Shown here: positions 2,322 to 21,182 of the stretch, piece by piece
How the letters are laid out: each line of letters begins with the position of its first letter
Position numbering within the stretch: the first letter of the stretch is position 1
IMG/VR virus record: IMGVR_UViG_3300029653_000080
Length of the DNA stretch: 22,386 nucleotides
From: a virus
Taxonomy: Duplodnaviria; Heunggongvirae; Uroviricota; Caudoviricetes
Strand: one strand, 5' to 3'
The notes under the pieces: model-generated
Told to the model about the DNA's origin: nothing
Databases searched by the model: none
Seen by the model: only the letters and a program-made list of their open reading frames with translations
Position numbers and translations under genes: made by a program

Positions 2322-5300
2322 ATGACCACTGTGAATAAAAAGTTAAAAAAAACTGCATCTGGCGCGATTACATGGTCGGTAATTGTTACCCAGATATTAT
2401 CTCCAGTTTCTCTTTCTTTGATCCCAGCAAACAGTTTTGCATCATCTGGTAATAAAGATGTTACGCAAACTTATGCCAGCGATGAGCATGCAAATAAAGT
2501 GGCCTCATTTGCAGCAAGTGCAGGTCAGAGCCTGGCGAATAATAATGCAAGTAGTTTTGCTGTAAATACTTTATCAACTCAGGGGACAAAAGAGGTCGTC
2601 GACTGGTTGCAACAATATGGCAATGCGCGCATCAAGCTTAATGTCGATGATTCTTTTTCCTTGAAGGATTCATCATTCGACTTTTTATATCCATGGCTGG
2701 ATACTCAGGATTATGTGTTATTCAGTCAGACATCACTACATCGTACTGATGACCGAAATCAGACCAATATTGGTTTGGGGATTCGTCATTTCACTCCTGA
2801 TAACGCAATGTTGGGTGCGAATGTTTTTTATGATTACGATTTAAGTCGCAGTCACTCTCGTGCAGGTTTTGGGGTTGAGTACTGGAGGGATTATTTCAGG
2901 CTTGGTGTAAATACCTATTTTGGTCTATCTGACTGGAAGAACAGTCGGGATATTGATGATTATCTGGAAAGACCTGCAAATGGCTGGGATTTTTCTGCTG
3001 AAGGATGGCTACCTGCTTATCCGCAATTAGGGGCATCTATTCAGTTTGAAAAATATTATGGTAAAAATGTCGGGTTATTTGGAAGCGATAACCTTCAGGA
3101 AAACCCTTACGCAGTTACTGGGGGAATTTCTTATACACCAGTTCCTCTGATTAAGTTTTCTGCACAGCATAAGCAAGGACAGAGCAACGTTCACGATACA
3201 ACCTTCGGTGTTGAGTTTAATTATCGCCCGGGCGTTTCCCTGGCTGAACAGCTTAGCAGCGATAATGTTGCAGTTATGCGAGAAGTCCAGAATCGGCGTT
3301 ATGATTTTGTTGAACGAAATAACAACATTGTTCTGGAGTACAAGAAGAAGCATGCACTGAAAATCAGTTTGCCAGAGTCTGTTCAGGGGGAGGGGGAATC
3401 AATCATCCCTGTAACACTGACAATCAACAATGCTAGTGGTGGTATCAAGTCTGTACAGTGGAATGATAGTGCATTCACTGCGGCTGGCGGCAAGATCAGT
3501 GGAAATGGCACATCATGGCAGATCACTTTACCGGCTTATAAAAGCGAAGGTGTAAATTCGTGGAATGTTGGAGCCACAGTCCAGGATAACAGAGGCAATG
3601 TTTCCAACTATGCCGTTATGAATATCAGCGTTAATAATAGTGGTGTCTCGACAGCGGATTCATCTTTTACGCTGGATGGGGATTCGTCTCCGACGATCTC
3701 TGCTGATGGTCAATCCACTTATCCAATAGTATTAAGCCTGAAAGACAGTAACGGTAAGGCATTAACCGGACTGGCTGATGACATTGAAATGTCTGTGGAA
3801 TTTACTGCGGATAGCAATAGTGCTCGACAGCGTGAAACGGTAACTGCTCCGTCATTAGGCGCGGTAGAGGAAATCTCTGCTGGTGTATATCGCTCTGTTC
3901 TGGCTGCTGGTTCGCAGGCTGGGACGGTACGTGTAACTGCAAAAGTTCAGGGAAAAACATTTACTCTCAGTATTAAGCAAACAGCAGCAACAGAACCTGA
4001 TTCTGAGGTCAGTGCTGTTTTAACCGCTGCACCAGCAGAACAGGTAGTTGGTTACAATATCAATCTACAACTGGCAGTGAAGGATTCACAAGGAAATGCA
4101 ATCACTGGTGATAACACTCTGAGCTTTTATGCTCTTAACCAGGCAGAAGGAGTCGAGTTTGGGACTGTAACGGAAAAAGACGGTGTCTATAGCGCGACAG
4201 TAACTTCAAAACGAGCTGGTAAGATTACTATCGGTGTTAAATCTGATAGTCATGATTTCTCAGGTGTTAAGAAAGAAATCACCTTTATTGAGGACCGGCA
4301 GCAGGTTACATTCTCTCAGTTTGAAGCCAGCCAAAATAATGCATTGGCTGATGGAAAACAGAGAAATATGGTAACTGTAAGCCTTGCGGACCGTTTCGGC
4401 AATGTTGTTCCTGGTTATGCTGTCACATTGTCTTTACCAGCAGGGATAACTCAAGTTGGTGGTGAACATGCTGTTTCAACTGACGAAAATGGTAATGCTA
4501 TTTTTGCGTTAATAAGCTCCACTCCGGGGTCTTACGTGATTACAGCTCATGCTGGTTCTCAGATGTCTACTGAGTTAACAGTGACCTTTGCATCAAATAT
4601 GACCGGAGCTTCACTGTCACTGACGCCTGAAAGCAGTAGTTTAATTTCCAATATTCCTGCTAATGGTAAGGATGCAGCGGTATTAGATGTGCAGCTGACA
4701 AATACGAATGCGTCGGTCAATGGGCAAAAGATTCAGCTCATCACCTCATCTGAAGGATTATCTGTACCAACAAATATCGTGACTGATTCAACAGGGCATG
4801 TTTCTGTTCCGCTTACAACGGTGAAAGCTGGTGAGTACACGGTGACTGCACGGGTGACTGACGGTTCCCATAGCGTGGAATCTGGCAGCGTTAAGTTAAC
4901 TTTTGTGCCCGATGTTGCTTCTGCAGAACTTACTATGAGTGTATCAAAACAGGAGATTGTGGCCGATGGCAGTGAAAACGCAACAGTAAACATTCAGTTG
5001 GTTGATGCGAATAACAATGCGTTTACAGGTGAGGTGGATTTAACGATTACACCATCGACGGGAGCATCATTGACCAGTAGTAATCTGCAACTGGATGCTC
5101 ATGGACAGGCAACAACGCAGTTCACTGCATCGAAATCAGGCCAGTACACAATTCAGGCCGAGTATGTTCTGGATGGGAAACGCATAACCGCAAGCCAGAA
5201 TATTGATGCCGTGACGGATGTGAAGGGGGCTGTGTTGGAGATCACATCATCTGCATCTTCGGCTGTAGTGAGCGATACCAACAATCTGGTATTTACGTTA

Positions 5301-5873
5301 CTGTTGAAAAGTAAGTCAGGCGAAGCATTAAGTGGTCGAGCATTGAATGTTAAGACATCTGGGCCGTCTAAATATGGTGCGTTGGTGGTTGATAAAACCA
5401 CAGTAACGACTGATGAGAACGGTCAGGCTACGGTAAGCGTACATGGTCGAACGGTTGGTTCGTATAAATTAACGGCGACCTTAAACGAACTTGGCAGTGA
5501 TGTTAGCGCGGTGAAATCATTCTCCCTGTACGCTGATGACGCAAATGGAGTATTGACTCTAACAAAAGATCCTGGTTATGAGACAAACGATGGCTCTCCA
5601 GTAGGTATTTATGCTCGATTTGTCGATCATTTTGGAAACCCATTATCTGGTACGGTTGAGTTTTCTGCTGGTAGTGAAGATAGTCCAGACTCTCAACGGG
5701 TCAAAATGGAGCCTGCTACAGTAACGTTACACTGGACAGGTAATGCAGCTTCGGAATTCAGCACCTATGAAAGTGGTTATCACTGGATTAAGGCCAAAAT
5801 AACGAATAGCAAAAATACATATGAGAAAACAATAAGGACTTATGTTGTAAAACTACCTGAAAAGGATAGTTAA
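2322..5873 (+). CDS. Inverse autotransporter (invasin/intimin-family, type Ve) adhesin with repeated bacterial Ig-like (Big_1-type) domains; no LysM domain
   Basis: Long N-terminal signal (…SLIPANSFA). The beta-barrel region (DWLQQYGNARIKLNVDDSFSLKDSSFDFLYPWLDTQDYVLFSQ...ERPANGWDFSAEGWLPAYPQLG...NPYAVTGGISYTPVPL...DFVERNNNIVLEYKKK) closely parallels the Yersinia invasin beta-domain. About 8 Ig-like repeats follow. AT-rich codon usage. Confidence 0.85.
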   Translation: MTTVNKKLKKTASGAITWSVIVTQILSPVSLSLIPANSFASSGNKDVTQTYASDEHANKVASFAASAGQSLANNNASSFAVNTLSTQGTKEVVDWLQQYGNARIKLNVDDSFSLKDSSFDFLYPWLDTQDYVLFSQTSLHRTDDRNQTNIGLGIRHFTPDNAMLGANVFYDYDLSRSHSRAGFGVEYWRDYFRLGVNTYFGLSDWKNSRDIDDYLERPANGWDFSAEGWLPAYPQLGASIQFEKYYGKNVGLFGSDNLQENPYAVTGGISYTPVPLIKFSAQHKQGQSNVHDTTFGVEFNYRPGVSLAEQLSSDNVAVMREVQNRRYDFVERNNNIVLEYKKKHALKISLPESVQGEGESIIPVTLTINNASGGIKSVQWNDSAFTAAGGKISGNGTSWQITLPAYKSEGVNSWNVGATVQDNRGNVSNYAVMNISVNNSGVSTADSSFTLDGDSSPTISADGQSTYPIVLSLKDSNGKALTGLADDIEMSVEFTADSNSARQRETVTAPSLGAVEEISAGVYRSVLAAGSQAGTVRVTAKVQGKTFTLSIKQTAATEPDSEVSAVLTAAPAEQVVGYNINLQLAVKDSQGNAITGDNTLSFYALNQAEGVEFGTVTEKDGVYSATVTSKRAGKITIGVKSDSHDFSGVKKEITFIEDRQQVTFSQFEASQNNALADGKQRNMVTVSLADRFGNVVPGYAVTLSLPAGITQVGGEHAVSTDENGNAIFALISSTPGSYVITAHAGSQMSTELTVTFASNMTGASLSLTPESSSLISNIPANGKDAAVLDVQLTNTNASVNGQKIQLITSSEGLSVPTNIVTDSTGHVSVPLTTVKAGEYTVTARVTDGSHSVESGSVKLTFVPDVASAELTMSVSKQEIVADGSENATVNIQLVDANNNAFTGEVDLTITPSTGASLTSSNLQLDAHGQATTQFTASKSGQYTIQAEYVLDGKRITASQNIDAVTDVKGAVLEITSSASSAVVSDTNNLVFTLLLKSKSGEALSGRALNVKTSGPSKYGALVVDKTTVTTDENGQATVSVHGRTVGSYKLTATLNELGSDVSAVKSFSLYADDANGVLTLTKDPGYETNDGSPVGIYARFVDHFGNPLSGTVEFSAGSEDSPDSQRVKMEPATVTLHWTGNAASEFSTYESGYHWIKAKITNSKNTYEKTIRTYVVKLPEKDS

Positions 5874-5885
5874 CAAAATTGAATG

Positions 5886-5912
5886 GGGAGGGCTTAGCCC
5901 TCCCTCTTTTTA
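5886..5912. terminator. Bidirectional intrinsic terminator between the convergent adhesin and esterase genes
   Basis: Perfect 8-bp GC-rich stem gggagggc-tta-gccctccc followed by tcttttt on the plus strand; A-rich on the other side gives a U-rich tract for the minus strand. Confidence 0.7.
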
Positions 5913-6953
5913 CAGGTTAGCGTTTGGGTTTTGTTGTTGGGGAGCTGTTTTTATAGGCGCTCCCAGGTTTTTAGTAAACCACTCAACGACTCTGTTTATA
6001 ATAATTGGCTGATACCATGTCTTATCGCCATGCTCGGCCCCTTCTACCAGCACGTACTCAGCGTTATCGCCGTTCTTCTTCAACATCCTGAATAGTTTGG
6101 CGCTTTGCTCAGGTGAAACCAGAGTGTCTTTGCTACCATGCATAATAAGAAATGGGGGTTTTACTCCTTTCATATGTCCGATTGGACTGGCGTTTAGCGC
6201 TTTTTCTTTTGACGCTGTGATGGGGGCTCCCGCAAAATTTCTGAATGCAGGGCCATTGATCATTAAGGCTTCGGTTACGGCAGGAGAGCGATGAACCTCC
6301 TGCACTGATTCAGGGAACCCCTCGCCAATATTCAACAAGTCAGAAATCCCATAAAGTGTGGCAACTGCCTGAACATCTGAGGATTGCTGAAGAAAGTCAC
6401 CTTTATCAAAGGTTTTGTCACCATTTGTAGTTCCCATCATCTGAGCAAGCCATCCACCGGCAGAGTCACCCAGAACTCCGATTCTTTGAGGATCAATCCC
6501 ATAATTGCTGGCATGCTCTCTCAGGTAACGTATTGCAGCTTTTCCATCCTCAACTGGTGCTGGAAATGTATCAGGAATTGTTCTGTATTCTACAGCGGCC
6601 ACAACAAAACCAGCTTCTGCCAGAGCCATTCTCATTTCAATAAATTTGTCATGTTCAGAAGACATGAATCCGCCGCCGGGATAATAAATAATGGCTGGTT
6701 TTAAATCATTTGTTCGCGGGACAAGAACTGACATGTGAAGCTGTCTGACAGAACGAGTTCCTTTTATCTGGGAATAAACAACATCACCAATGAGATCGAC
6801 TTGGTTTCTGGTCGGTGAAACACTAATGATATCTGCACCCGGGGTGTAACCAGGAAGATTAGTCTGGACAGGTGTTGCACAACTCCCGACCGACATGGCC
6901 ATTGACATACCATACAATAGTGTTGCAGATGATAATATCTTGTTAATTTTCAT
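5910..6953 (-). CDS. Secreted (probably lipoprotein) alpha/beta-hydrolase-fold esterase/lipase, HSL-like (Abhydrolase_3) family
   Basis: Signal peptide MKINKILSSATLLYGMSMAMSVGSC (possible lipobox), oxyanion-hole motif YYPGGGF, nucleophile elbow GDSAGG, C-terminal EGAEHGD histidine. Confidence 0.8.
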   Translation of the reverse strand: MKINKILSSATLLYGMSMAMSVGSCATPVQTNLPGYTPGADIISVSPTRNQVDLIGDVVYSQIKGTRSVRQLHMSVLVPRTNDLKPAIIYYPGGGFMSSEHDKFIEMRMALAEAGFVVAAVEYRTIPDTFPAPVEDGKAAIRYLREHASNYGIDPQRIGVLGDSAGGWLAQMMGTTNGDKTFDKGDFLQQSSDVQAVATLYGISDLLNIGEGFPESVQEVHRSPAVTEALMINGPAFRNFAGAPITASKEKALNASPIGHMKGVKPPFLIMHGSKDTLVSPEQSAKLFRMLKKNGDNAEYVLVEGAEHGDKTWYQPIIINRVVEWFTKNLGAPIKTAPQQQNPNANL

Positions 6954-11134: not shown

Positions 11135-11350
11135 ATGAAATCCATGGATAAGTTAACAACGGGTGTCGCCTATGGCACCTCAGCAGGTAGTGCCGGGTAC
11201 TGGTTTTTACAGTTGCTCGATAAAGTCACGCCCTCACAGTGGGCGGCAATAGGTGTGCTGGGTAGTCTGGTATTTGGCTTGCTGACGTATCTGACAAACC
11301 TTTATTTCAAGATTAAAGAAGATAAGCGTAAGGCTGCGAGAGGTGAATAA
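11135..11350 (+). CDS. S: Class II pinholin, S21 type
   Basis: 71-aa [74 protein letters not shown], closely matching phage 21 S; stop overlaps the next ATG (TAATG). Confidence 0.9.
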
Positions 11351-14300
11351 TGTCGCCATCATTACGCAAGGCTATTGCTGCTGCTATTGGTGGTGGGGCT
11401 GTTGCCATAGCGTCTGTGCTCATCACTGGTCCGAGTGGTGACGATGGCCTGGAAGGTGTCAGCTACATACCATACAAAGATATTGTTGGTGTATGGACTG
11501 TATGTCACGGGCATACAGGAAAAGACATCATGCTCGGTAAAACGTATAAAGGCAGCAGTAAGGGGCATACCCCGCGCGAAGCGAAGGACAACCTGAAATC
11601 CACGCAGTTACTGAGTGTGATCGATGCCATCAGCGAAGGGCCGATTGAAGGTCCGGTGGATGGGTTAAAAAGCGTGCTACTGAACAGTACGCCGGTGCTG
11701 GACACTGAGGGGAATACCAATATCTCCGGTGTCACGGTGGTGTTCCGGGCAGGTGAGCAGGAGCAGACTCCGCCGGAGGGGTTTGAATCCTCCGGCTCCG
11801 AGACGGTGCTGGGTACGGAAGTGAAATACGACACGCCGATCACCCGCACCATCACGTCGGCAAACATCGACCGTCTGCGTTTTACCTTCGGTGTGCAGGC
11901 ACTGGTGGAAACCACTTCAAAGGGTGACCGGAATCCGTCGGAAGTTCGCCTGCTGGTTCAGATACAGCGTAACGGTGGCTGGGTGACGGAAAAAGACATC
12001 ACCATTAAGGGCAAAACCACCTCGCAGTATCTGGCCTCGGTGGTGGTGGATAACCTGCCTCCGCGCCCGTTCAATATCCGGATGCGCAGGATGACACCGG
12101 ACAGCACCACAGACCAGCTGCAGAACAAAACGCTCTGGTCGTCATACACCGAAATCATCGATATGAAACAGTGCTACCCGAACACGGCACTGGTCGGTGT
12201 GCAGGTGGACTCGGAGCAGTTCGGCAGTCAGCAGGTGAGTCGTAATTATCATCTGCGCGGGCGCATTCTGCAGGTGCCGTCGAACTATAACCCGCAGACG
12301 CGACAATACAGCGGTATCTGGGACGGAACGTTAAAACCGGCATACAGCAACAACATGGCCTGGTGTCTGTGGGATATGCTGACCCATCCGCGCTACGGCA
12401 TGGGGAAACGTCTTGGTGCGGCGGATGTGGACAAATGGGCGCTGTATGTCATCGGCCAGAATTGCGACCAGTCGGTGCCGGATGGTTTTGGTGGCACGGA
12501 GCCGCGCATCACCTGTAATGCCTGGCTGACCACACAGCGTAAGGCGTGGGATGTTCTCAGTGATTTCTGCTCGGCGATGCGCTGTATGCCGGTATGGAAC
12601 GGGCAGACGCTGACGTTCGTGCAGGACCGGCCGTCGGATAAGGTGTGGACCTATAACCGCAGTAATGTGGTGATGCCGGATGATGGCGCGCCGTTCCGCT
12701 ACAGTTTCAGCGCCCTGAAGGACCGCCATAATGCCGTTGAGGTGAACTGGATTGACCCGGATAACGGCTGGGAGACGGCGACAGAGCTTGTGGAGGACAC
12801 GCAGGCCATTGCCCGTTACGGTCGTAACGTCACGAAGATGGATGCCTTTGGCTGTACCAGTCGGGGGCAGGCACACCGAGCCGGGCTGTGGCTGATTAAA
12901 ACGGAACTGCTGGAAACGCAGACCGTGGATTTCAGCGTGGGCGCAGAAGGGCTTCGCCATGTGCCGGGCGATGTTATTGAAATCTGCGATGATGACTATG
13001 CGGGTATCAGCATCGGCGGGCGCGTGCTGGCGGTGAACAGCCAGACCCGGACGCTGACGCTCGACCGTGAAATCACTCTGCCATCCTCCGGTACCACGCT
13101 GATAAGCCTGGTTGACGGAAGCGGCAATCCGGTCAGCGTGGAGGTCCAGTCCGTCACCGACGGCGTGAAGGTAAAAGTGAGCCGGGTTCCTGACGGCGTT
13201 GCCGGATACAGCGTGTGGGGGCTGAAGTTGCCGACGTTGCGCCAGCGCCTGTTCCGCTGCGTGAGTATCCGTGAGAACGATGACGGCACGTATGCCATCA
13301 CTGCCGTGCAGCATGTACCGGAAAAAGAGGCCATCGTGGATAACGGGGCGCACTTTGACGGCGACCAGAGCGGCACGGTGAATGGTGTCACGCCGCCAGC
13401 GGTGCAGCACCTGACTGCCGAAGTCACCGCAGACAGCGGGGAATATCAGGTGCTGGCGCGCTGGGACACGCCGAAGGTGGTGAAGGGGGTGAGCTTTATG
13501 CTTCGCCTGACCGTGGCAGCGGATGACGGCAGTGAGCGGCTGGTCAGCACGGCCCGGACGACGGAAACCACATACCGCTTCACGCAACTGGCGCTGGGGC
13601 GGTACACGCTGACAGTCCGGGCGGTAAATGCGTGGGGGCAGCAGGGCGATCCGGCGTCGGTATCGTTCCGGATTGCCGCACCGGCAGCACCGTCGAGGAT
13701 TGATCTGACGCCGGGCTATTTTCAGATAACCGCCACGCCGCATCTTGCCGTTTATGACCCGACGGTACAGTTTGAATTCTGGTTCTCGGAAAAGCGGATT
13801 ACCGATATCAGGCAGGTTGAAACCACAGCCCGCTATCTTGGCACGGCGCTGTACTGGATAGCTGCCAGTATCAATATTAAGCCGGGCCATGATTATTATT
13901 TTTATATCCGCAGTGTGAATACTGTTGGCAAATCGGCATTCGTGGAGGCTGTCGGTCAGGCGAGCGATGATGCTTCCGGCTATCTGGATTTTTTCAAAGG
14001 CCAGATAACTGAATCCCATCTCGGCAAGGAGCTGCTGGAAAAAGTCGAGCTGACGGAGGATAACGCCAGCAAACTGGAGGAGTTTTCGAAAGAGTGGAAA
14101 GACGCCAACGATAAATGGAATGCCATGTGGGGCGTCAAAATTGAGCAGACCGAAGACGGCAGGCATTATGTCGCGGGTATTGGCCTCAGCATGGAGGATA
14201 CGGAGGAAGGCAAACTGAGCCAGTTCCTGGTTGCCGCTAACCGTATCGCGTTTATTGACCCGGCAAACGGGAATGAAACGCCGATGTTTGTGGCGCAGGG

Positions 14301-14940
14301 CAACCAGATATTCATGAACGAAGTGTTCCTGAAGTATCTGACGGCTCCCACCATTACCAGCGGCGGCAATCCGCCGGTATTTTCCCTGACACCGGACGGG
14401 CGGTTGACGGCGAAAAATGCCGATATCAGCGGTAACGTGAATGCGAACTCAGGGACGCTCAATAATGTCACGATTAACCAGAACTGTCGGATTCTGGGAA
14501 AACTGTCTGCCAACCAGATTGAAGGTGATATTGTCAAAACGGTGGGAAAAGCCTTTCCGAGAAATGGCAGTTATGCCAGCGGTACAATAACGGTCACTGT
14601 GTACGATGACCAGGCTTTTGACCGTCAGATAGTAATCCCACCCGTTCTGTTTCGCGGTGGTAAGCATGAAAACTTCAACAGCAACAACCAACAGTCATAC
14701 TGGTATTCAACCTGTAAGCTGCAGGTACTGAAGAACGGACAGGAAATCTTTCAGCAACCCGCGACGGATGTCAGCAGGGTATTTTCATCCGTCATTGATA
14801 TGCCAGCGGGACACGGCCATGTCACCCTGACTTTCAATGTTTCTTCATATGGTGCAAATAACTGGACGCCAACGACCAGTATCAGCGACCTTCTTGTTGT
14901 CGTGATGAAGAAATCAACAGCCGGTATCAGTATCAGTTGA
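11350..14940 (+). CDS. Chimeric ORF: N-terminal 66 codons of a SAR endolysin (R21 type, signal-anchor-release domain) fused in frame to codon 3 onward of a lambda-type tail-tip host-specificity protein J; C-terminal about 150 aa of J diverge from lambda
   Basis: Residues 1-66 [66 protein letters not shown] match the R21 SAR endolysin N-terminus. From [36 protein letters not shown]... the sequence is near-identical to lambda J from residue 3. Junction at about nt 11547. Confidence 0.85.
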
Positions 14941-14998
14941 ATTTTATAACCCAAATACGGGCGCCAGAAATGGCGCCTTTTTTATTTGTGGAGTGAAT

Positions 14999-17060
14999 AT
15001 GGCAGTACAGATTTCAGGCGTGCTGAAAGACGGTGCAGGAAAACCAATACAGAACTGTACTATTCAGCTCAAAGCAAAGCGTAACAGCACCACGGTACTG
15101 GTGAACACGGTGGCCTCTGAAAATCCGGATGAAGCCGGGCGTTACAGCATNNNNNNNNNNNNNNNNNNNNNNNNNNNNNNNNNNNNNNNNNNNNNNNNNN
15201 NCGCCTTCACATGCCGGGACCATTACCGTCTATGAAGGTTCCAGACCAGGTACGCTGAATGATTTTCTCGGTGCCATGACGGAAGATGATGTCATGCCGG
15301 AGGCATTGCGTCGTTTTGAGGTAATGGTGGAGGATGTGGCACGCAACGCTGAAGCCGCCTCTCAGAGCGCAGCGGCAGCAAAGAAATCAGAAACAGCAGC
15401 GGCATCGTCCAGGAACGCGGCGAAAACATCAGAGACGAATGCAGGTAACAGCGCGAAAGCGGCAGCTTCTTCAAAAACAGCCGCACAAAACGCAGCAACA
15501 GCGGCAGAACGTTCAGAGACAAATGCCCGTGCGTCAGAAGAAGCCTCCGCAGACAGTGAAGAGGCTTCCCGCCGTAATGCAGAGTCAGCCGCTGAAAATG
15601 CCGGAGTCGCCACCACAAAAGCGCGGGAGGCTGCAGCAGACGCAACAAAGGCCGGGCAGAAAAAGGATGAGGCTCTGTCGGCAGCGACACGAGCTGAAAA
15701 GGCGGCAGACCGCGCAGAAGCCGCAGCGGAAGTGACTGCAGAGCCCTATGCGAATATAGTGCCGCCGCTGCCTGATGTGTGGATACCGTTTAACGATTCA
15801 CTGGATATGATTGCGGGTTTTTCTCCGGGCTATAAAAAAATAGCTATTGGTGACGATGTGGTTCAGGTCGCCAGTGATAAACAGGTTAATTTCAGTCGCG
15901 CATCAACGGCAACATATATCAACAAATCTGGCGAACTGAAAACGGCGGAAATTAATGAGCCGCGATTTGAGTGTGATGGCCTGCTTATTGAGGGACAAAG
16001 AACGAACTACATGCTCAATTCGGAAAGTCCAGCCAGCTGGGGGAAGTCATCAAACATGGATGTGCCCGAAACCGGGACGGATAGTTTTGGTTTTACTTAT
16101 GGAAAGTTTGTCTGCAACGATTCTCTGGTTGGGCAAACTTCGGCTATTAATATGGCATCAATTGCTGCAACAAAGTCAGTTGATGTCTCAGGCGATAACA
16201 AGTACGTGACAACCTCATGCCGTTTTAAAACAGAACGACAGGTAAGGTTACGTATACGGTTTGATAAGTATGATGGTAGTGCAACAACTTTTCTTGGCGA
16301 TGCGTACATTGATACGCAAACGCTTGAAATTAATATGACAGGTGGTGCTGCCGGCAGAATTACGGCACGAGTCAGGAAGGATAAGACCACGGGCTGGATT
16401 TTTGCAGAGGCAACGATTCAGGCAATTGATGGTGAGTTAAAAATAGGCTCTCAGATACAGTATTCTCCTGAGCAGGGTGGGGCAACAGTATCTGGTGACT
16501 ATATTTATCTTGCCACCCCACAAGTAGAGAATGGGCCGTGTGTATCATCATTTATTATTTCAGGAGGCAGCGCAACGACAAGAGCCAGTGATTTGGTTAG
16601 TATCCCCACCAGAAATAATCTTTATAAGTTACCATTTACTTTTTTACTTGAGATTCATAAAAACTGGGATATTGCACCAAACGCCGCACCCCGCGTGTGG
16701 GATATAGCAGCAGCCAATACCGGGCAATCAGCAATTGCAGCAATCAACAGAGGTAGTGGTAAGTTATATATGAGTCTGTCAAACCCTTCAGGCTCGTATG
16801 TTAATAGCGCAGCGACAGATGTATTTGCAGAGAAAACCACATTTGGATGTATTGCAAAAGCTGATGGTCACTTTCATGTGGTGACAAATGGTAAAGCGGT
16901 TAATGAAGTTTATTGTGAATATAATGGCGTGACCGCTGATAAAAATATCCGATTTGGAGGGCAGACGAATACTGGAGAACGACATCTGTTTGGCCATATT
17001 CGCAATTTCCGCATATGGCATAAAGAATTAAATGACAGGCAATTAAAAGAGGTCGTATGA
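14999..17060 (+). CDS. stf: Side tail fibre protein (Stf-like): lambda-Stf-type N-terminus, Ala-rich central repeats, lectin-like (LamG / concanavalin-type) C-terminal region; interrupted by an assembly gap
   Basis: N-terminus MAVQISGVLKDGAGKPIQNCTIQLKAKRNSTTVLVNTVASENPDEAGRYS...PSHAGTITVYEGSRPGTLNDFL parallels lambda Stf. C-terminus ends ...NIRFGGQTNTGERHLFGHIRNFRIWHKELNDRQLKEVV, the typical end of Laminin_G_3-type domains. A 51-N run breaks the frame; track ORFs 14993..15235 and 15129..17060 are the two parts. Confidence 0.8.
15151..15201. other. Assembly gap / masked bases (51 N) inside stf
   Basis: Run of n characters. Flanking codons match lambda Stf on both sides with about 17 codons missing, and the N count is not frame-preserving, so the length is a placeholder. 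Confidence 0.95.
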
Positions 17061-17335
17061 AAGATTTAACTTTGAAGTTTCATGACAAACTGCAGTTTAA
17101 GGCCTTCCTGTCATCTCTTGGCTGGGCGGAAGATGAAGACCTCCAGAATAAACTGTTAGTTGATGAAATTGGTTTCACCTACACAGAAACAGGGGTAACA
17201 GAAGAGGGAGAACCTGTCTGTATCCGGAATGATGGTTATTTTGTCAACATTCGCATTCTTGATGACTTGTTTGATGTTTCTGTATTCTCTGATTATGTCG
17301 TGGAGCTGGAAACACCGCTTCGGGAATGGAGCTGA
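17057..17335 (+). CDS. Hypothetical acidic 92-aa protein translationally coupled to stf (tail-fibre accessory candidate); not Tfa-like
   Basis: ATG overlaps the stf stop (ATGA); RBS AAGAGG upstream. Sequence MKDLTLKFHDKLQFKAFLSSLGWAEDEDLQNKLLVDEIGFTYTETGVTEEGEPVCIRNDGYF... has no signal peptide and no family I recognise. Confidence 0.55.
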   Translation: MKDLTLKFHDKLQFKAFLSSLGWAEDEDLQNKLLVDEIGFTYTETGVTEEGEPVCIRNDGYFVNIRILDDLFDVSVFSDYVVELETPLREWS

Positions 17336-17347
17336 AAGGAGGAAATA

Positions 17348-17788
17348 ATGGATATAAGCCCCTTACTTCATGCACTTTGTGCTGTGGCTGCGCAGATACT
17401 GGTTGGTCTTTTTACCGGAAACTGGGCTTACGGAGCGATAGCCGGTTGTACGTTCTTCATTGCGCGTGAACATACCCAGGCAGAATATCGCTGGATTGAA
17501 ATGTTCGGGCATGGCAAGCGAATGAATATGCCGTGGTGGGGCGGTTTTGATCCGCGTGCTTGGGATGTGGCAAGCCTGATGGATTTTGCTGTGCCGGTGG
17601 TGGCGTGTCTGCTGGTCTGGCTGTTGGTTAATCGTGGGCGAAAAAAGGTGAGCTGTATATGCAACGGAGGAAGAAACCCCGTTGCTGGAAGCCAGGAAAA
17701 AGTATCGGGTGTTGCTGTCCTCGGATGTTGTGCTAATTGGGTGATAACAGATCCTGTGTATGGGAGTTTCCCTTTTTGCGTGCGTTGA
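17348..17788 (+). CDS. Hypothetical inner-membrane protein (about 3 predicted TM helices); the C-terminal about 45 codons are doubtful and overlap the sitD 3' end
   Basis: Strong RBS AAGGAGG 6 nt before the ATG. Hydrophobic segments LLHALCAVAAQILVGLFTG, WAYGAIAGCTFFIA, ASLMDFAVPVVACLLVWLLV, then a basic NRGRKK; the Cys-rich tail overlaps convergent sitD. Confidence 0.5.
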   Translation: MDISPLLHALCAVAAQILVGLFTGNWAYGAIAGCTFFIAREHTQAEYRWIEMFGHGKRMNMPWWGGFDPRAWDVASLMDFAVPVVACLLVWLLVNRGRKKVSCICNGGRNPVAGSQEKVSGVAVLGCCANWVITDPVYGSFPFCVR

Positions 17789-18590
17789 TGCTGGTAACGG
17801 CAAACGTCATGATGAACAAAACCGCGAATAAGACGACAATCGTCGGAGCTGGTGCGCTGTCGATAAAAAAGGACAACCAGACACCAGTCATTGACACTAT
17901 TACCGATATGCCAGTCGCCAGTAGGAGCGCAATATGAAAGCGTTGTGTCAGGAGTACCGCAATGGCGCCAGGCGCAATGAGCAGAGAAATGGAGAGAATG
18001 ATACCTACCGCTTTCAGCGTCGCCACAATGGTCAGAGAGACCATGCACAGCAGCCCATAATGCAGCCATCTCGTATGCAAACCGCTTACCTGCGCCTGTT
18101 GATAATCAAAGCTGAACAGCAAAAAATCCCGCCATTTTACGCTAATAACAAGTGTAACCAGCCCGGCAATAATCATCGTCTGGATTATATCGCCGATGGT
18201 TATCCCGAGCATGTCGCCGAAAAGAATATGGTCAAGATGTACGTCTGGTTTGACTGCAATATACAAAATCAGACCTGCGGCAAACATGCCAGAAAAAACA
18301 ATCCCCATCACTGTATCTTGCTTGATTCGGCTGTTGTCTTTCAGGTATCCCGTCGCCACCGCGCAGAATACTCCGGCGACGAATGCCCCTGTAGCCAAAG
18401 GTAACCCCAGAATCCAGGCAAGCACGATGCCAGGAAAAACCGCATGACTCATCGTGTCACCCATCAGTGCCCAGCCTTTCAGGACCAGAAAGACCGACAG
18501 CAGCGCACAGGGTATGGAAACTACCAGTGAAATCAGCAGTGCGTGACTCATAAAGGTGAACTGCAGTGGCTCCAGTAATAATGCCATCAT
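17733..18590 (-). CDS. sitD: Mn/Fe ABC transporter permease SitD
   Basis: 285-aa polytopic permease; last gene of the four-gene minus-strand operon, start overlapping the sitC stop. Confidence 0.9.
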   Translation of the reverse strand: MMALLLEPLQFTFMSHALLISLVVSIPCALLSVFLVLKGWALMGDTMSHAVFPGIVLAWILGLPLATGAFVAGVFCAVATGYLKDNSRIKQDTVMGIVFSGMFAAGLILYIAVKPDVHLDHILFGDMLGITIGDIIQTMIIAGLVTLVISVKWRDFLLFSFDYQQAQVSGLHTRWLHYGLLCMVSLTIVATLKAVGIILSISLLIAPGAIAVLLTQRFHIALLLATGISVIVSMTGVWLSFFIDSAPAPTIVVLFAVLFIMTFAVTSINARKKGNSHTQDLLSPN

Positions 18591-19444
18591 GAGCGATCCT
18601 CCAGCGCCTTATGCGCACGCCGACGATTTGCCAAAAGCCCATGGGTGGGCGCAAAGACAAATGCTAAAAGAAACAGCAGTGTCTGCGCCACCACGATGAT
18701 TCCACCTGTCGCGCCGTCCAGAAAGTAACTGACCCACGCGCCGAGGAAACTGGTTACACTGCCAATAGTTACAGCAATCATGAGCAGGCGGGGAAAACGA
18801 TCGGTTAACAACCATGCTGTTGCTCCGGGAGTCACCACCAGACAGATCACCAGAAAGGCACCAACCGTTTGCAGCGCCGCAACGGTCGAAACCGACAGCA
18901 GGGTGAAGAAGAGGAGTTTTAATCTGCCCGGATGCAATCCAATAGCACGGGCGTGATTCTCGTCGAAAAAGGTCACCATAAGATCTTTCCATTTGAAAAA
19001 AAGCACGATGATCGAGAGAATGCCAATGATAGTGAGTTGCAGGATATCCGCCGGATCGATTGCCAGAATATTGCCCAGGACGATGGTCTGAATGTTCACA
19101 GATGTCGGGTTCAATGACACCATAAACAGCCCCAGGCCAAAAAAGGACGAGAAGATCAGGCCGATGATGGCATCTTCTTTTAAGCGGGTGCGTTGGTTAA
19201 GAAACAGCATGCTGCCCGCAGCCAGTCCGCCGGAAAAGAAGGCTCCCAGAGAAAACGGAAGCCCCAGCATATATGCCCCCGCAACACCCGGGACAATAGA
19301 GTGCGACAACGCATCGCCAATCAGCGACCAGCCTTTTAGCATCAGATAGCATGACAGGAAAGCGCAGAGACCGCCGACCATCGCCGAGACCCACATCGCA
19401 TTGAGCATATATTCATAGCTGAAGGGTTCCAGTAGCACGTTCAT
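18587..19444 (-). CDS. sitC: Mn/Fe ABC transporter permease SitC
   Basis: 285-aa permease paralogous to SitD; start and stop overlap neighbours by 4 nt. Confidence 0.9.
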
Positions 19445-20268
19445 CTTTCTTCCCTCTGCACCGCTGACGGTCGATGAGCCACAAAAGGGCGTTCATCGTC
19501 AGTAATAATGCTTTCTTCCGAGCCGTTAAGTGTGACATGGCGCAGTACGCCGCTAAAAGCCAGCTCCAGGTTCTCGGCTGTAAAAGTGGTGTCTGTCGGC
19601 CCGCTTGCCAGGACGGTGCCTTTGACCATGACCGTATAATCGCAAAATGTCGTGACGGATCCGAGATTGTGCGTTGAGACAAGCATCGTTTTGCCTTCCG
19701 CGCGTAACTCCCTCAACAGGCTGATGATTTTGGCTTCGGTTTTCACATCAACGCCAGTAAAAGGTTCATCCAGCAGGATCACATCACCCTGCTGTGCAAT
19801 CGCTCTCGCCAGAAAGACGCGTTTCTTTTGTCCACCGGAAAGCTCGCCGATTTGTCGATGGCGAAAATTCACCATATCGACACGTTCCAGCGCATCGGTG
19901 ACAATTTGACGATCCCTCTTTTTGGCGATACGCAACATACCCATATGCCCATAGCGGCCCATCATCACCACATCTTCCACCAGTACAGGAAATGACCAGT
20001 CAACCTCTTCTGACTGAGGGACGTAGGCAACCAGGTTTTTCTGTAACGCCTGTCGCGTGGGAATACCCAGAACAGATATCTTTCCGCTGGTCAGACGCAC
20101 AAATCCCATAATCGCTTTAAACAACGTCGATTTTCCGGAACCGTTTACCCCAACCAGAGCGGCAATAGATCCACTTGGTACTGTGAAGGATGCATCGCGC
20201 AGTGCTGTGTGCCCGTTACGCCAGGTGACAGCAACATCATTAACGACAATGCCTGCAGATTGCATCAT
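19441..20268 (-). CDS. sitB: Mn/Fe ABC transporter ATP-binding protein SitB
   Basis: Walker [13 protein letters not shown] signature LSGGQKKR, Walker B ILLDEP. Confidence 0.92.
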
Positions 20269-21182
20269 TATTTCTCCCTTTTCCCGGCTTTAATTCCCTG
20301 TACCAGCGTACTGGTAGTAACCTTAAGAAGGTCGATATACGTCGGTACCGGGCCGTTTTCTGTGCTCAGGGAATCGACATAGAGCACACCGCCGTAGTGT
20401 GCGCCGGTTTCACGCGCAACCTGACGCGCTGGTTTATCGGAAATCGTACTCTCGCTAAAGACTGCCGGGATATGATTTTTCTTAACTATATCAACAACCT
20501 TACGTACCTGCTGCGGTGTTCCTTGTTGATCGGCATTAATCGGCCACAGATAAAGCTCTTTTAGCCCCAAATCGCGTGCGAGATAAGAAAAAGCCCCTTC
20601 ACTGGTGACCATCCATCGCTGATTCTCAGGGAGTTCCGTAATCTGCTTACGCAGGGGGGCAAGGGTTTGGGTAATCTTGGCTTTATAAGTATCGGCATTG
20701 CGTTGGTAGGTTTGTGCATTTGCCGGATCGTATTTTATCAACGCATCACGAATATTATCGACGTAAATCAGAGCATTATCTGGCGACATCCATGCATGGG
20801 GGTTAGGTTTGCCCTCATAGGGTCCTTCGGTGATCCCTACAGGCGTCACACCCGAAGAGACAATTACTTCTGGAACCCCATTGAGATGCTGGTAAAAGCG
20901 TTGGAACCACAATTCCAGATTCATACCATTGGCGAGAATCAGTTGTGCCCCCTGCGCACGTTTAATATCGCCAGGGGTAGGCTGATACTCATGAATTTCT
21001 GCACCAGGCTTGGTTATGGATGAGACTTCTGCAGCATCTCCCGCCACGTTTTTGGCCATATCCGCGATGATGGTAAATGTTGTAATGACCTTAAATTTTT
21101 CAGTTGCACTTGCCTGAAATGCGATCGAGCAGGTGAGTGCGAGGCCCCCCAAGAGCATGGTTACTTTTTTTATTGAGCGCAT
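20268..21182 (-). CDS. sitA: Periplasmic metal-binding protein SitA (cluster A-I substrate-binding protein)
   Basis: 304 aa with signal peptide [26 protein letters not shown]; first gene of the operon. Confidence 0.9.

What the first reader, a model, noticed from the sequence alone, without database searches (positions are those of the whole stretch)
17057..17335. Unrecognised acidic 92-aa ORF translationally coupled to the tail-fibre gene
It sits where tfa would be, overlaps the stf stop (ATGA) and has a good RBS, but it is not Tfa-like. It is strongly acidic, with no signal peptide or TM segment. Candidate roles are a novel fibre chaperone or assembly factor, or a small cytoplasmic cargo protein (acidic anti-defence proteins often look like this). 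I do not recognise the family.
Basis: inference. Interest (0 to 1): 0.45.

Follow-up and report, generated by a model that had tools for sequence, protein, structure and literature searches.

The report
Small partner protein of LamG-ended phage fibres
The 92-residue acidic ORF is a real, conserved gene that sits directly after one particular kind of phage fibre gene in siphoviruses, myoviruses and podovirus-like contigs, so it is almost certainly a dedicated helper or subunit of that fibre, from a family whose function nobody has described.

Summary
ORF 17057-17335 (+) encodes 92 aa, overlaps the stf stop by ATGA, follows an AAGAGGT ribosome-binding site, has pI 4.2 and has no hydrophobic segment.

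In all 87 close loci, 8 distant metagenomic or prophage contexts, and T5-like and rV5-like phages, a family member lies directly after a fibre protein homologous to this stf up to its LamG-type C-terminus. The two genes usually overlap by 4 nt.

The gene travels with that fibre end. rV5 gp41 shares its shaft (89% identity) with the APECc02 fibre, but ends in an S74 intramolecular chaperone and has no such ORF. The LamG-ended APECc02 allele has one.

dN/dS is about 0.34. The protein is always acidic and the fibre's LamG end is always basic.

Best reading: a trans-acting assembly factor or cap for LamG-ended fibres. The main rival is a structural joint for a distal fibre, whose gene follows the ORF in many phages but not here. 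An anti-defence role is not supported. The function itself remains unproven.

The parts
14993..17060 (+). Side tail fibre gene (stf), interrupted by a run of 51 N at 15151-15201. It has an N-terminal attachment domain, an Ala-rich coiled coil, a conserved neck (aa 204-293 of the 643-aa ORF), a spike-fibre domain and a basic LamG-type C-terminal domain.
   Evidence: Pfam phage_tail_N and Laminin_G_3, NCBIfam GTA_spike_fiber, phrog_1419. ORF 14993-15235 matches phrog_1419 positions 1-51. N run. PDB 6TB9 Rcc01080 head spike fibre at E 6e-10. Conservation profile.
17047..17053 (+). Ribosome-binding site AAGAGGT for the 92-aa ORF, inside the end of stf.
   Evidence: Read from the sequence. The same site is annotated as an RBS in the phage 21 record.
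17057..17335 (+). The 92-aa acidic ORF, a member of PHROG 1361. Its start overlaps the stf stop (ATGA at 17057-17060).
17336..17342 (+). Ribosome-binding site AAGGAGG for the next ORF. There is no terminator-like or promoter-like site between stf, the 92-aa ORF and the next ORF.
17348..17788 (+). Next ORF in the same transcription unit, 146 aa here. Its first 96 aa match phrog_1443. The gene is a 97-aa two-TM membrane protein in phage 21 and most prophages. It is a variable neighbour, not a fixed part of the pair.
   Evidence: In the lambdoid phages Tritos and PhiR49_1 a small ORF of the same size (97 aa) comes after the distal fibre gene; its homology to this gene was not checked.

Best explanation
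The 92-aa protein is a dedicated partner of fibres that end in a spike-fibre plus LamG-type domain. It is made with the fibre from the same late transcript, and the coupled start suggests matched amounts. I infer that it binds a conserved feature of the fibre. The most likely target is the basic C-terminal LamG end, whose last ~35 residues are conserved even when the receptor-binding loops are swapped. I infer that it acts as a trans-acting assembly factor or cap for that end. That is the job done by Tfa in lambda-type fibres and by the S74 intramolecular chaperone in T5- and rV5-type fibres. What is shown: the gene is real and under purifying selection; it is strictly linked to, and overlaps, this fibre type in siphoviruses, myoviruses and podovirus-like contigs; it travels with the LamG-type C-terminal cassette; it is acidic where the fibre end is basic; and it is unrelated in sequence and fold to known fibre chaperones. 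What is inferred: physical binding, the binding site, and the chaperone or cap activity.
For: (1) In all 84 close loci where an upstream ORF could be read (of 87), that ORF is a long fibre ORF homologous to this stf right to its last residues. 83 of them overlap the small ORF by 4 nt.
(2) Eight distant contexts show the same pair. These are: an Atlantibacter Mu-like prophage, where the pair sits between the DNA_circ_N gene and the gp44-like hub gene; two lambda-like contigs; SU10/P22-like podovirus contigs, where the pair sits among the head genes; a contig with T4 neck proteins; and one next to a DUF4815 protein.
(3) Apparent exceptions are really divergent members. 218 phage records hold the fibre against 143 that hold the ORF by tblastn. 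The two groups sampled from the excess both have a member directly downstream: AKFV33 orf136 (E 6e-24) and rV5-like gp190 (E 1e-18).
(4) A natural allele swap. rV5 gp41 is 88.8% identical to the APECc02 fibre along the shaft. It ends in an S74 intramolecular chaperone and has no family member anywhere in 45 kb. The LamG-ended APECc02 allele has one, and the next gene there is Dit, not a fibre.
(5) The ORF is kept under purifying selection (median dN/dS 0.34) in lambdoid prophages that have no distal fibre.
(6) Net charge is -8 to -14 in 15 phages, while the last 150 aa of each fibre have pI 9.0-9.8.
(7) Receptor-domain cassettes are exchanged without changing the ORF. In L023 the ORF is 99% identical while fibre residues 301-643 are only 30-50% identical. 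The ORF must therefore recognise conserved fibre features, namely blocks 204-293, 459-533 and 609-643.
(8) These fibres have no S74 domain and no tfa gene.
Against: No binding, assembly or virion data exist for any member. A complex prediction could not be run. Beta-sandwich domains such as LamG usually fold unaided. The homologous RcGTA head fibre Rcc01080 is reported as a single-subunit fibre, and the papers read name no such partner. The ORF does not co-vary with the LamG domain: KarlJaspers has a LamG end 76-84% identical to this one but an ORF only about 51% identical. A tip-specific chaperone would be expected to co-vary. In many phages a distal fibre gene follows the ORF directly, which fits a structural joint equally well.
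Confidence: 0.5

Rival explanations
1. Structural joint or adaptor. The protein stays in the virion at the end of the proximal fibre and forms the socket into which the conserved N-terminal peptide of a distal fibre plugs. This would resemble T4 gp35, which sits between the proximal and distal half-fibres.
For: The gene order proximal fibre, ORF, distal fibre is found in Drexlerviridae, Queuovirinae, Dhillonvirus, T5-like phages and some lambdoids. It is also found in distant contigs: L090, L106, L092, L109 and L107. Ten of the 12 distal fibre genes read, plus AKFV33 orf135, begin with M[AV]T.T[VN]IP.DIT.LK whatever their receptor-binding part. All 48 enterobacterial phage hits to the first 90 residues of one such fibre lie next to the ORF wherever both positions were listed. 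DT57C LtfB docks on an S74-ended LtfA with no such ORF, and it lacks that peptide.
Against: The ORF is kept, under purifying selection, where no distal fibre gene follows. This holds for this window and the whole phage 21 group, for rV5-like phages (next gene Dit), for the Atlantibacter Mu-like prophage (next gene the baseplate hub), and for contigs where the pair sits among head genes. The window has no ORF carrying the docking peptide. The published AlphaFold-Multimer models of IrisVonRoten show Gp24 attached to Gp22 and do not discuss the small protein (PMC11990801).
Confidence: 0.3
2. Small acidic cytoplasmic cargo: an anti-defence protein or DNA mimic, or another moron that merely sits after the fibre gene.
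For: The protein is small, acidic and soluble and has no known domain. It lies next to cargo genes: a small membrane protein and sitABCD.
Against: It is never found apart from the fibre gene. It overlaps that gene's stop codon. It moves with the fibre into head and baseplate gene clusters of unrelated phages. It is lost together with the LamG-type end in rV5. It is conserved in strictly virulent phages in the same position. It has no PADLOC hit, although PADLOC holds defence systems rather than anti-defence proteins, so this point is weak.
Confidence: 0.04
3. The reading frame has no function of its own. It is conserved only as a homologous flank that serves recombination of fibre cassettes, or as a translational-coupling spacer for the next gene.
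For: Recombination break-points fall in or next to the ORF, and its 3' two-thirds stay constant while fibre cassettes change.
Against: dN/dS is 0.2-0.5. Protein-level motifs are conserved down to about 30% identity in unrelated phages: MxDxxL[KR]F, DxIG, G[YW]xVNxR and PxRxW at the C-end. The AF2 fold is confident. Only one of 87 copies is truncated (L029).
Confidence: 0.04

Closest known systems
Lambda Tfa / Mu gpU / P2 gpG tail fibre assembly proteins
   Same: The gene lies immediately after the fibre gene with an overlapping or adjacent start. It is carried along with the fibre's C-terminal part. It is a small soluble protein. It fills the slot that tfa fills in lambda itself, since phage 21 and lambda share the stf N-terminus.
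Peptidase_S74 intramolecular chaperone domain (T5 pb1, K1F endosialidase, rV5 gp41)
   Same: It is an alternative solution at the same position. In Vequintavirinae the same fibre shaft carries either an S74 end or a LamG end plus this ORF.
   Different: It is a separate polypeptide. It has no S74 motif and no evidence of cleavage. Its predicted fold differs: a three-stranded sheet with helices.
T4 gp35 (hinge between proximal and distal half-fibres)
   Same: The gene lies between a proximal and a distal fibre gene in many phages.
   Different: It is 92 aa against about 370 aa (the gp35 size is from memory). No homology was tested and none is expected. The ORF is also present where there is no distal fibre, as in this window.
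RcGTA head spike (Rcc01079 base plus Rcc01080 fibre)
   Same: The stf spike-fibre domain is homologous to Rcc01080. Some distant pairs sit among head genes, as a head fibre would.
   Different: The small partner in RcGTA is encoded upstream and is a jellyroll base pentamer (PMC7296036). It is not this alpha/beta fold, and the fold searches of solved structures returned no RcGTA chain. Rcc01080, at 325 aa, matched only the spike-fibre part of stf; whether it has a LamG end was not tested.

Membership tests
PHROG 1361 (unknown function; labelled VOG7707 in some phage records) | Full-length match to the family profile | tested here: met
   E 3.2e-42, residues 1-91 on profile positions 1-91 of 92. 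Dru_SM1 and tuinn homologues carry the labels phrog 1361 and VOG7707.
PHROG 1361 and wider family | Conserved motifs MxDxxL[KR]F, DxIG, G[YW]xVNxR and C-terminal PxRxW | tested here: met
   Alignments A1-A3. The window protein has MKDLTLKF, DEIG, GYFVNIR and PLREWS.
PHROG 1361 and wider family | Position directly after a fibre gene that ends in a spike-fibre plus LamG-type domain | tested here: met
Tfa-type tail fibre assembly proteins (lambda Tfa, Mu gpU, P2 gpG) | Sequence membership in a Tfa family | tested here: not met
   No Pfam or NCBIfam hit apart from LUD_dom at E 0.29.
Tfa-type tail fibre assembly proteins | Fold similar to a solved fibre chaperone | tested here: not met
Tfa-type tail fibre assembly proteins | Gene immediately downstream of, and co-expressed with, the fibre gene | tested here: met
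   ATGA overlap, own RBS, and no terminator-like or promoter-like site between the two genes.
Tfa-type tail fibre assembly proteins | Required for folding or oligomerisation of the fibre | not testable with these tools
   This needs co-expression or a deletion mutant.
Peptidase_S74 intramolecular chaperone | S74 domain match | tested here: not met
   No hit in the ORF or in stf. The domain is present in the distal fibres of other phages.
Fibre joint or adaptor (T4 gp35-like role) | Encoded between a proximal and a distal fibre gene | tested here: not met
   In this window the next gene is a small membrane protein, and no ORF carries the docking peptide. The feature is met in many other members.
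Fibre joint or adaptor (T4 gp35-like role) | Present in the virion | not tested
   No proteome of a phage carrying the ORF was found. rV5, which has a published virion proteome, lacks the gene.
Acidic anti-defence proteins or DNA mimics | Occurs independently of structural genes, in early or accessory regions | tested here: not met
   Every copy whose neighbourhood could be read follows the fibre gene (directly, or two genes downstream in L093) in a late structural operon.

The most novel reading that the evidence does not exclude
The protein is a virion component that turns the LamG end of a proximal fibre into a universal socket. Distal receptor-binding proteins with the short N-terminal peptide (M-x-T-x-T-V/N-I-P-x-D-I-T-x-L-K) plug into it. 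Phages could then swap, or even borrow from co-resident prophages, whole distal fibres without touching the proximal fibre. Phages such as 21 would carry an empty socket.
Probability: 0.25. Interest if true: 0.6.

Novelty: new variant of a known kind. Interest (0 to 1): 0.45.

Why it matters
Fibre accessory proteins decide whether an engineered or chimeric fibre assembles at all. This family accompanies a fibre type found in about a fifth of complete E. coli genomes. It is also present in much-used phage groups: T5-like, T1-like, rV5-like, Dhillonvirus, Queuovirinae and lambdoids. Yet it is annotated only as 'hypothetical protein', apart from one RefSeq record that calls it 'tail fiber protein', and it is left out of published fibre models. 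If it is needed for assembly, or is part of the fibre, host-range engineering and structural models of these lateral fibres must include it. If it is the socket for distal fibres, it explains how branched fibres are built in these phages. It would also add a third, unrelated answer (besides Tfa and the S74 domain) to the question of how phage fibre ends are completed.

Tried and rejected
- Pfam, NCBIfam and PADLOC scans of the ORF gave nothing.
- A PDB sequence profile search gave only a chance-level match to Tetrahymena p19 at E 0.22.
- BFVD returned only uncharacterised phage proteins.
- The afdb50 library was not available.
- I tested whether RcGTA GhsA (Rcc01079) is the counterpart. I rejected this because it is an upstream jellyroll base protein.
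- The Alteromonas 'transient chaperone caps' resemble S74 domains according to that paper's abstract, so I did not treat them as relatives. No sequence or fold comparison with them was run.
- Long repetitive proteins in the representative search (P0151, P0180 and others) look like hits to repeat units that resemble the GYFVNIRILDD hairpin (WGDG-containing repeats, by eye). I judged them not to be fusions; no domain scan was run.
- P0260 in L093 is a weak member separated from its fibre by a 53-aa ORF. I kept it only as a marginal case.
- Literature searches for family identifiers found nothing. The BASEL papers, the DT57C papers and the O-antigen review do not discuss the small protein.
- The rV5 virion proteome could not be used because rV5 lacks the gene.

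Full report
**The observation**

It runs from ATG at 17057 to TGA at 17333-17335 and encodes 92 codons. Its start codon overlaps the stop of the upstream fibre gene as ATGA. AAGAGGT sits 4 nt upstream.

The protein has pI 4.17, with 20 acidic against 8 basic residues. Its most hydrophobic 19-residue window scores 0.83, so there is no membrane or signal segment. It hits no Pfam, NCBIfam or PADLOC model.

The upstream gene is a side tail fibre. It has the prophage tail-fibre N-terminal domain, an Ala-rich coiled coil, an NCBIfam 'GTA head spike fibre' domain, and a C-terminal Laminin_G_3-like domain that scores just under Pfam's cut-off.

One correction is needed. That gene is split by a run of 51 N at 15151-15201, and it really begins near 14993.

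**Is it a real gene?**

Yes.
- It matches PHROG 1361 ('unknown function') end to end at E 3e-42.
- tblastn finds it in 143 phage records.
- megablast finds it in 1131 of 5426 complete E. coli genomes.
- Profile searches find 328 clusters at 90% identity, plus more distant relatives down to about 30% identity.
- Among 17 distinct alleles from lambdoid prophages, pairwise dN/dS is 0.2-0.5 with a median of 0.34.
- Only one of 87 fetched copies is truncated (L029).
- Motifs are conserved across the whole family: MxDxxL[KR]F at the N-end, DxIG, G[YW]xVNxR, and PxRxW at the very C-end.
- AF2 with a 41-sequence alignment gives a confident model: pLDDT 89.7, with order strand-helix-helix-long hairpin-short helix-tail.

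**Where does the window come from?**

The region is 99-100% identical to phages Perceval, ev207, 21 and mEp460. Phage 21 has the same order: J, terminator, stf, this ORF, a 97-aa two-TM protein, then sitDCBA on the other strand.

The window itself looks like a defective prophage. After O, P, NinB, RusA, Q and a holin comes one ORF (11350-14940). It joins the first ~85 residues of a lysozyme to protein J from its FNIII-A domain onwards, so the head genes and most tail genes appear to be deleted.

**The linkage**

I fetched 87 close loci.
- In 84 loci a long upstream ORF is present. In 83 of these it overlaps the small ORF by 4 nt, and in one by 1 nt.
- The other three lacked a readable upstream ORF, at least some because the contig or the stored flank was too short.
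- Every upstream protein aligns with this stf through to its last residues.

The pair is also found far outside E. coli siphoviruses:
- An Atlantibacter Mu-like prophage has a 525-aa Laminin_G_3 protein and a 93-aa member, again with a 4-nt overlap. The pair is inserted between the DNA-circulation gene and the gp44-like hub gene.
- Two lambda-like contigs have J, a ~553-aa protein, a 100-aa member and an S74 fibre.
- SU10/P22-like podovirus contigs carry the pair among the head genes, in two of the three just after the capsid gene.
- A contig with T4 neck proteins carries it.
- Another has a 730-aa Laminin_G_3 protein, the member, and a 1620-aa DUF4815 protein.

An HMM of the stf C-terminal 450 residues hits six of these eight upstream proteins. 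The other two share the same C-terminal motif.

The fibre's C-terminal 433 residues hit 218 phage records, against 143 for the ORF. I sampled the excess.
- T5-like AKFV33 has an 88-aa ORF right after the fibre. It is a divergent family member (HMM E 6e-24).
- rV5-like phages such as APECc02 and JeffSchatz have a 110-aa member (E 1e-18; 42% identity to the window protein over 79 residues).

In the two groups I sampled, the excess reflects divergence rather than absence.

**The most informative comparison**

This comparison comes from the Vequintavirinae. rV5 gp41 and the APECc02 fibre are 88.8% identical along the shaft (gp41 residues 225-1049) but have different ends.
- rV5 gp41 ends in an S74 intramolecular chaperone. 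No family member exists anywhere in 45 kb of its structural region.
- The APECc02 allele ends '...GERHLFGHIKDIRVWNSALTD', which is the LamG-type end. It is followed by the 110-aa member and then by Dit, not by another fibre.

The small gene therefore belongs to the LamG-type C-terminal cassette. It occupies the slot that the S74 domain fills in one lineage and that tfa fills in lambda.

**What does it recognise?**

Receptor-binding cassettes are exchanged without it.
- Locus L023 has an ORF 99% identical to this one, next to a fibre whose residues 301-643 are only 30-50% identical.
- Conversely, KarlJaspers has a LamG end 76-84% identical but an ORF only about 51% identical.

The protein must therefore read conserved features of the fibre. 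The fibre's conserved blocks are residues 204-293 (the neck, PxPDVW...TNY), 459-533, and the last 35 residues.

In all 15 phages compared, the small protein carries a net charge of -8 to -14, while the fibre's last 150 residues have pI 9.0-9.8. This points, weakly, to the LamG end as the contact.

**The complication**

In Drexlerviridae, Queuovirinae, Dhillonvirus, T5-like phages and some lambdoids (Tritos, PhiR49_1), a third gene follows: a distal fibre. In the five I scanned (KarlJaspers, VogelGryff, IrisVonRoten, L090 and L106) it carries an S74 end.

Ten of the 12 distal fibre genes I read, plus AKFV33 orf135, begin with the peptide M[AV]T.T[VN]IP.DIT.LK, whatever follows it. The 48 enterobacterial phage hits to the first 90 residues of one such fibre lie right after the small ORF wherever both positions were listed. 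DT57C LtfB attaches to an S74-ended LtfA with no small ORF between the genes, and it lacks this peptide.

The distal fibre therefore depends on the LamG-fibre-plus-ORF module. The reverse is not true. The module stands alone in this window and the phage 21 group, in rV5-like phages, in the Mu-like prophage, and in the contigs where the pair sits among head genes.

This leaves two live readings: a trans-acting assembly factor or cap for the LamG end (my preferred one), or a structural joint that also serves as the docking site. The two are not exclusive.

**Comparison with known systems**

- It is not an S74 domain.
- The stf spike-fibre domain is homologous to the RcGTA head-spike fibre Rcc01080 (PDB 6TB9, E 6e-10). 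However, the GTA's small partner Rcc01079 is an upstream jellyroll base protein, so it is not a counterpart (PMC7296036).
- The BASEL papers model IrisVonRoten's Gp22-Gp24 fibre and note the galectin-like end of Gp22. They do not discuss the small Gp23, which is this family (PMC11990801).
- Searches for family identifiers in the paper library found nothing.

**Verdict**

The 'fibre chaperone or assembly factor' idea is the best-supported reading. The anti-defence idea is not supported.

The family is catalogued but uncharacterised. It would be a new, unrelated kind of fibre accessory protein, tied to LamG-ended fibres in siphoviruses, myoviruses and podovirus-like contigs.

The function is inferred from gene context, allele comparison and charge, not demonstrated. 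Complex prediction, pull-down, virion proteomics and a deletion mutant would settle it.

Noticed in passing
window 11350-14940 (+): One 1196-aa ORF joins the first ~85 residues of a phage lysozyme (Pfam Phage_lysozyme, residues 34-83) to tail-tip protein J from its FNIII-A domain onwards. It comes right after a holin gene (11135-11350). This looks like a deletion that removed the rest of the lysis genes and all head genes and most tail genes, so the prophage appears defective.
   Followed up: partly
window 15151-15201: A run of 51 N lies inside the stf gene. The stf N-terminus (phrog_1419 positions 1-51) is in ORF 14993-15235, in a different frame from 15129-17060. The listed 643-aa stf ORF is therefore an artefact of the masked stretch. 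Phage 21 stf is 686 aa.
   Followed up: yes
window 17348-17788 (+): The ORF after the finding is 146 aa here and in a few identical loci. It is 94-98 aa in most of the other lambdoid prophage loci, and 97 aa in phage 21, where it is annotated as a two-TM membrane protein (phrog_1443). The extra 50 residues run antisense into sitD, which suggests a lost stop codon.
   Followed up: partly
window 17733-21182 (-): A complete sitDCBA iron/manganese ABC transporter operon is carried as phage cargo directly after the fibre module. The same arrangement is in phages 21, Perceval, ev207, ev017 and PhiR63_2.
   Followed up: partly
window 2322-5873 (+) and 5910-6953 (-): A 1183-aa ORF of unknown function (phrog_7803 and phrog_16344) and an esterase-like gene sit between replication gene P and the nin region. 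This is an unusually large insert for that position.
   Followed up: no
L001, L002, L003, L095-L098, L101, L102, L104, L105 (gene after the ORF92 homologue): Distal fibre proteins of otherwise unrelated sequence share an N-terminal peptide M[AV]T.T[VN]IP.DIT.LK. It is absent from DT57C LtfB (L114).
   Followed up: partly
L113 (rV5, gp41) versus L111 (APECc02 fibre): The same fibre shaft (88.8% identity) carries either an S74 intramolecular-chaperone end with no small ORF, or a LamG-type end plus a 110-aa member of this family.
   Followed up: yes
L092, L093, L108 (metagenomic podovirus-like contigs): The fibre-plus-small-ORF pair sits among the head genes: just after the capsid gene in L092 and L108, and between the portal and coat genes in L093. 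This recalls the RcGTA head-spike fibre, to which the stf spike domain is homologous. These may be head fibres.
   Followed up: no
L103 3779-4100 (Dru_SM1): The distal fibre gene seems frameshifted near its start. The docking peptide MTKQVTNIPADIK is in one frame and the rest of the fibre is in another. This may be a sequencing error or a pseudogene.
   Followed up: no
phage records MG065652-MG065692, OR847733, OR849447: Records named Campylobacter phage or Listeria phage carry sequences that match the rV5-like E. coli phage protein at 98-99% identity, or match this window's fibre and ORF at 50-72% identity. They are probably mislabelled or contaminated entries.
   Followed up: no
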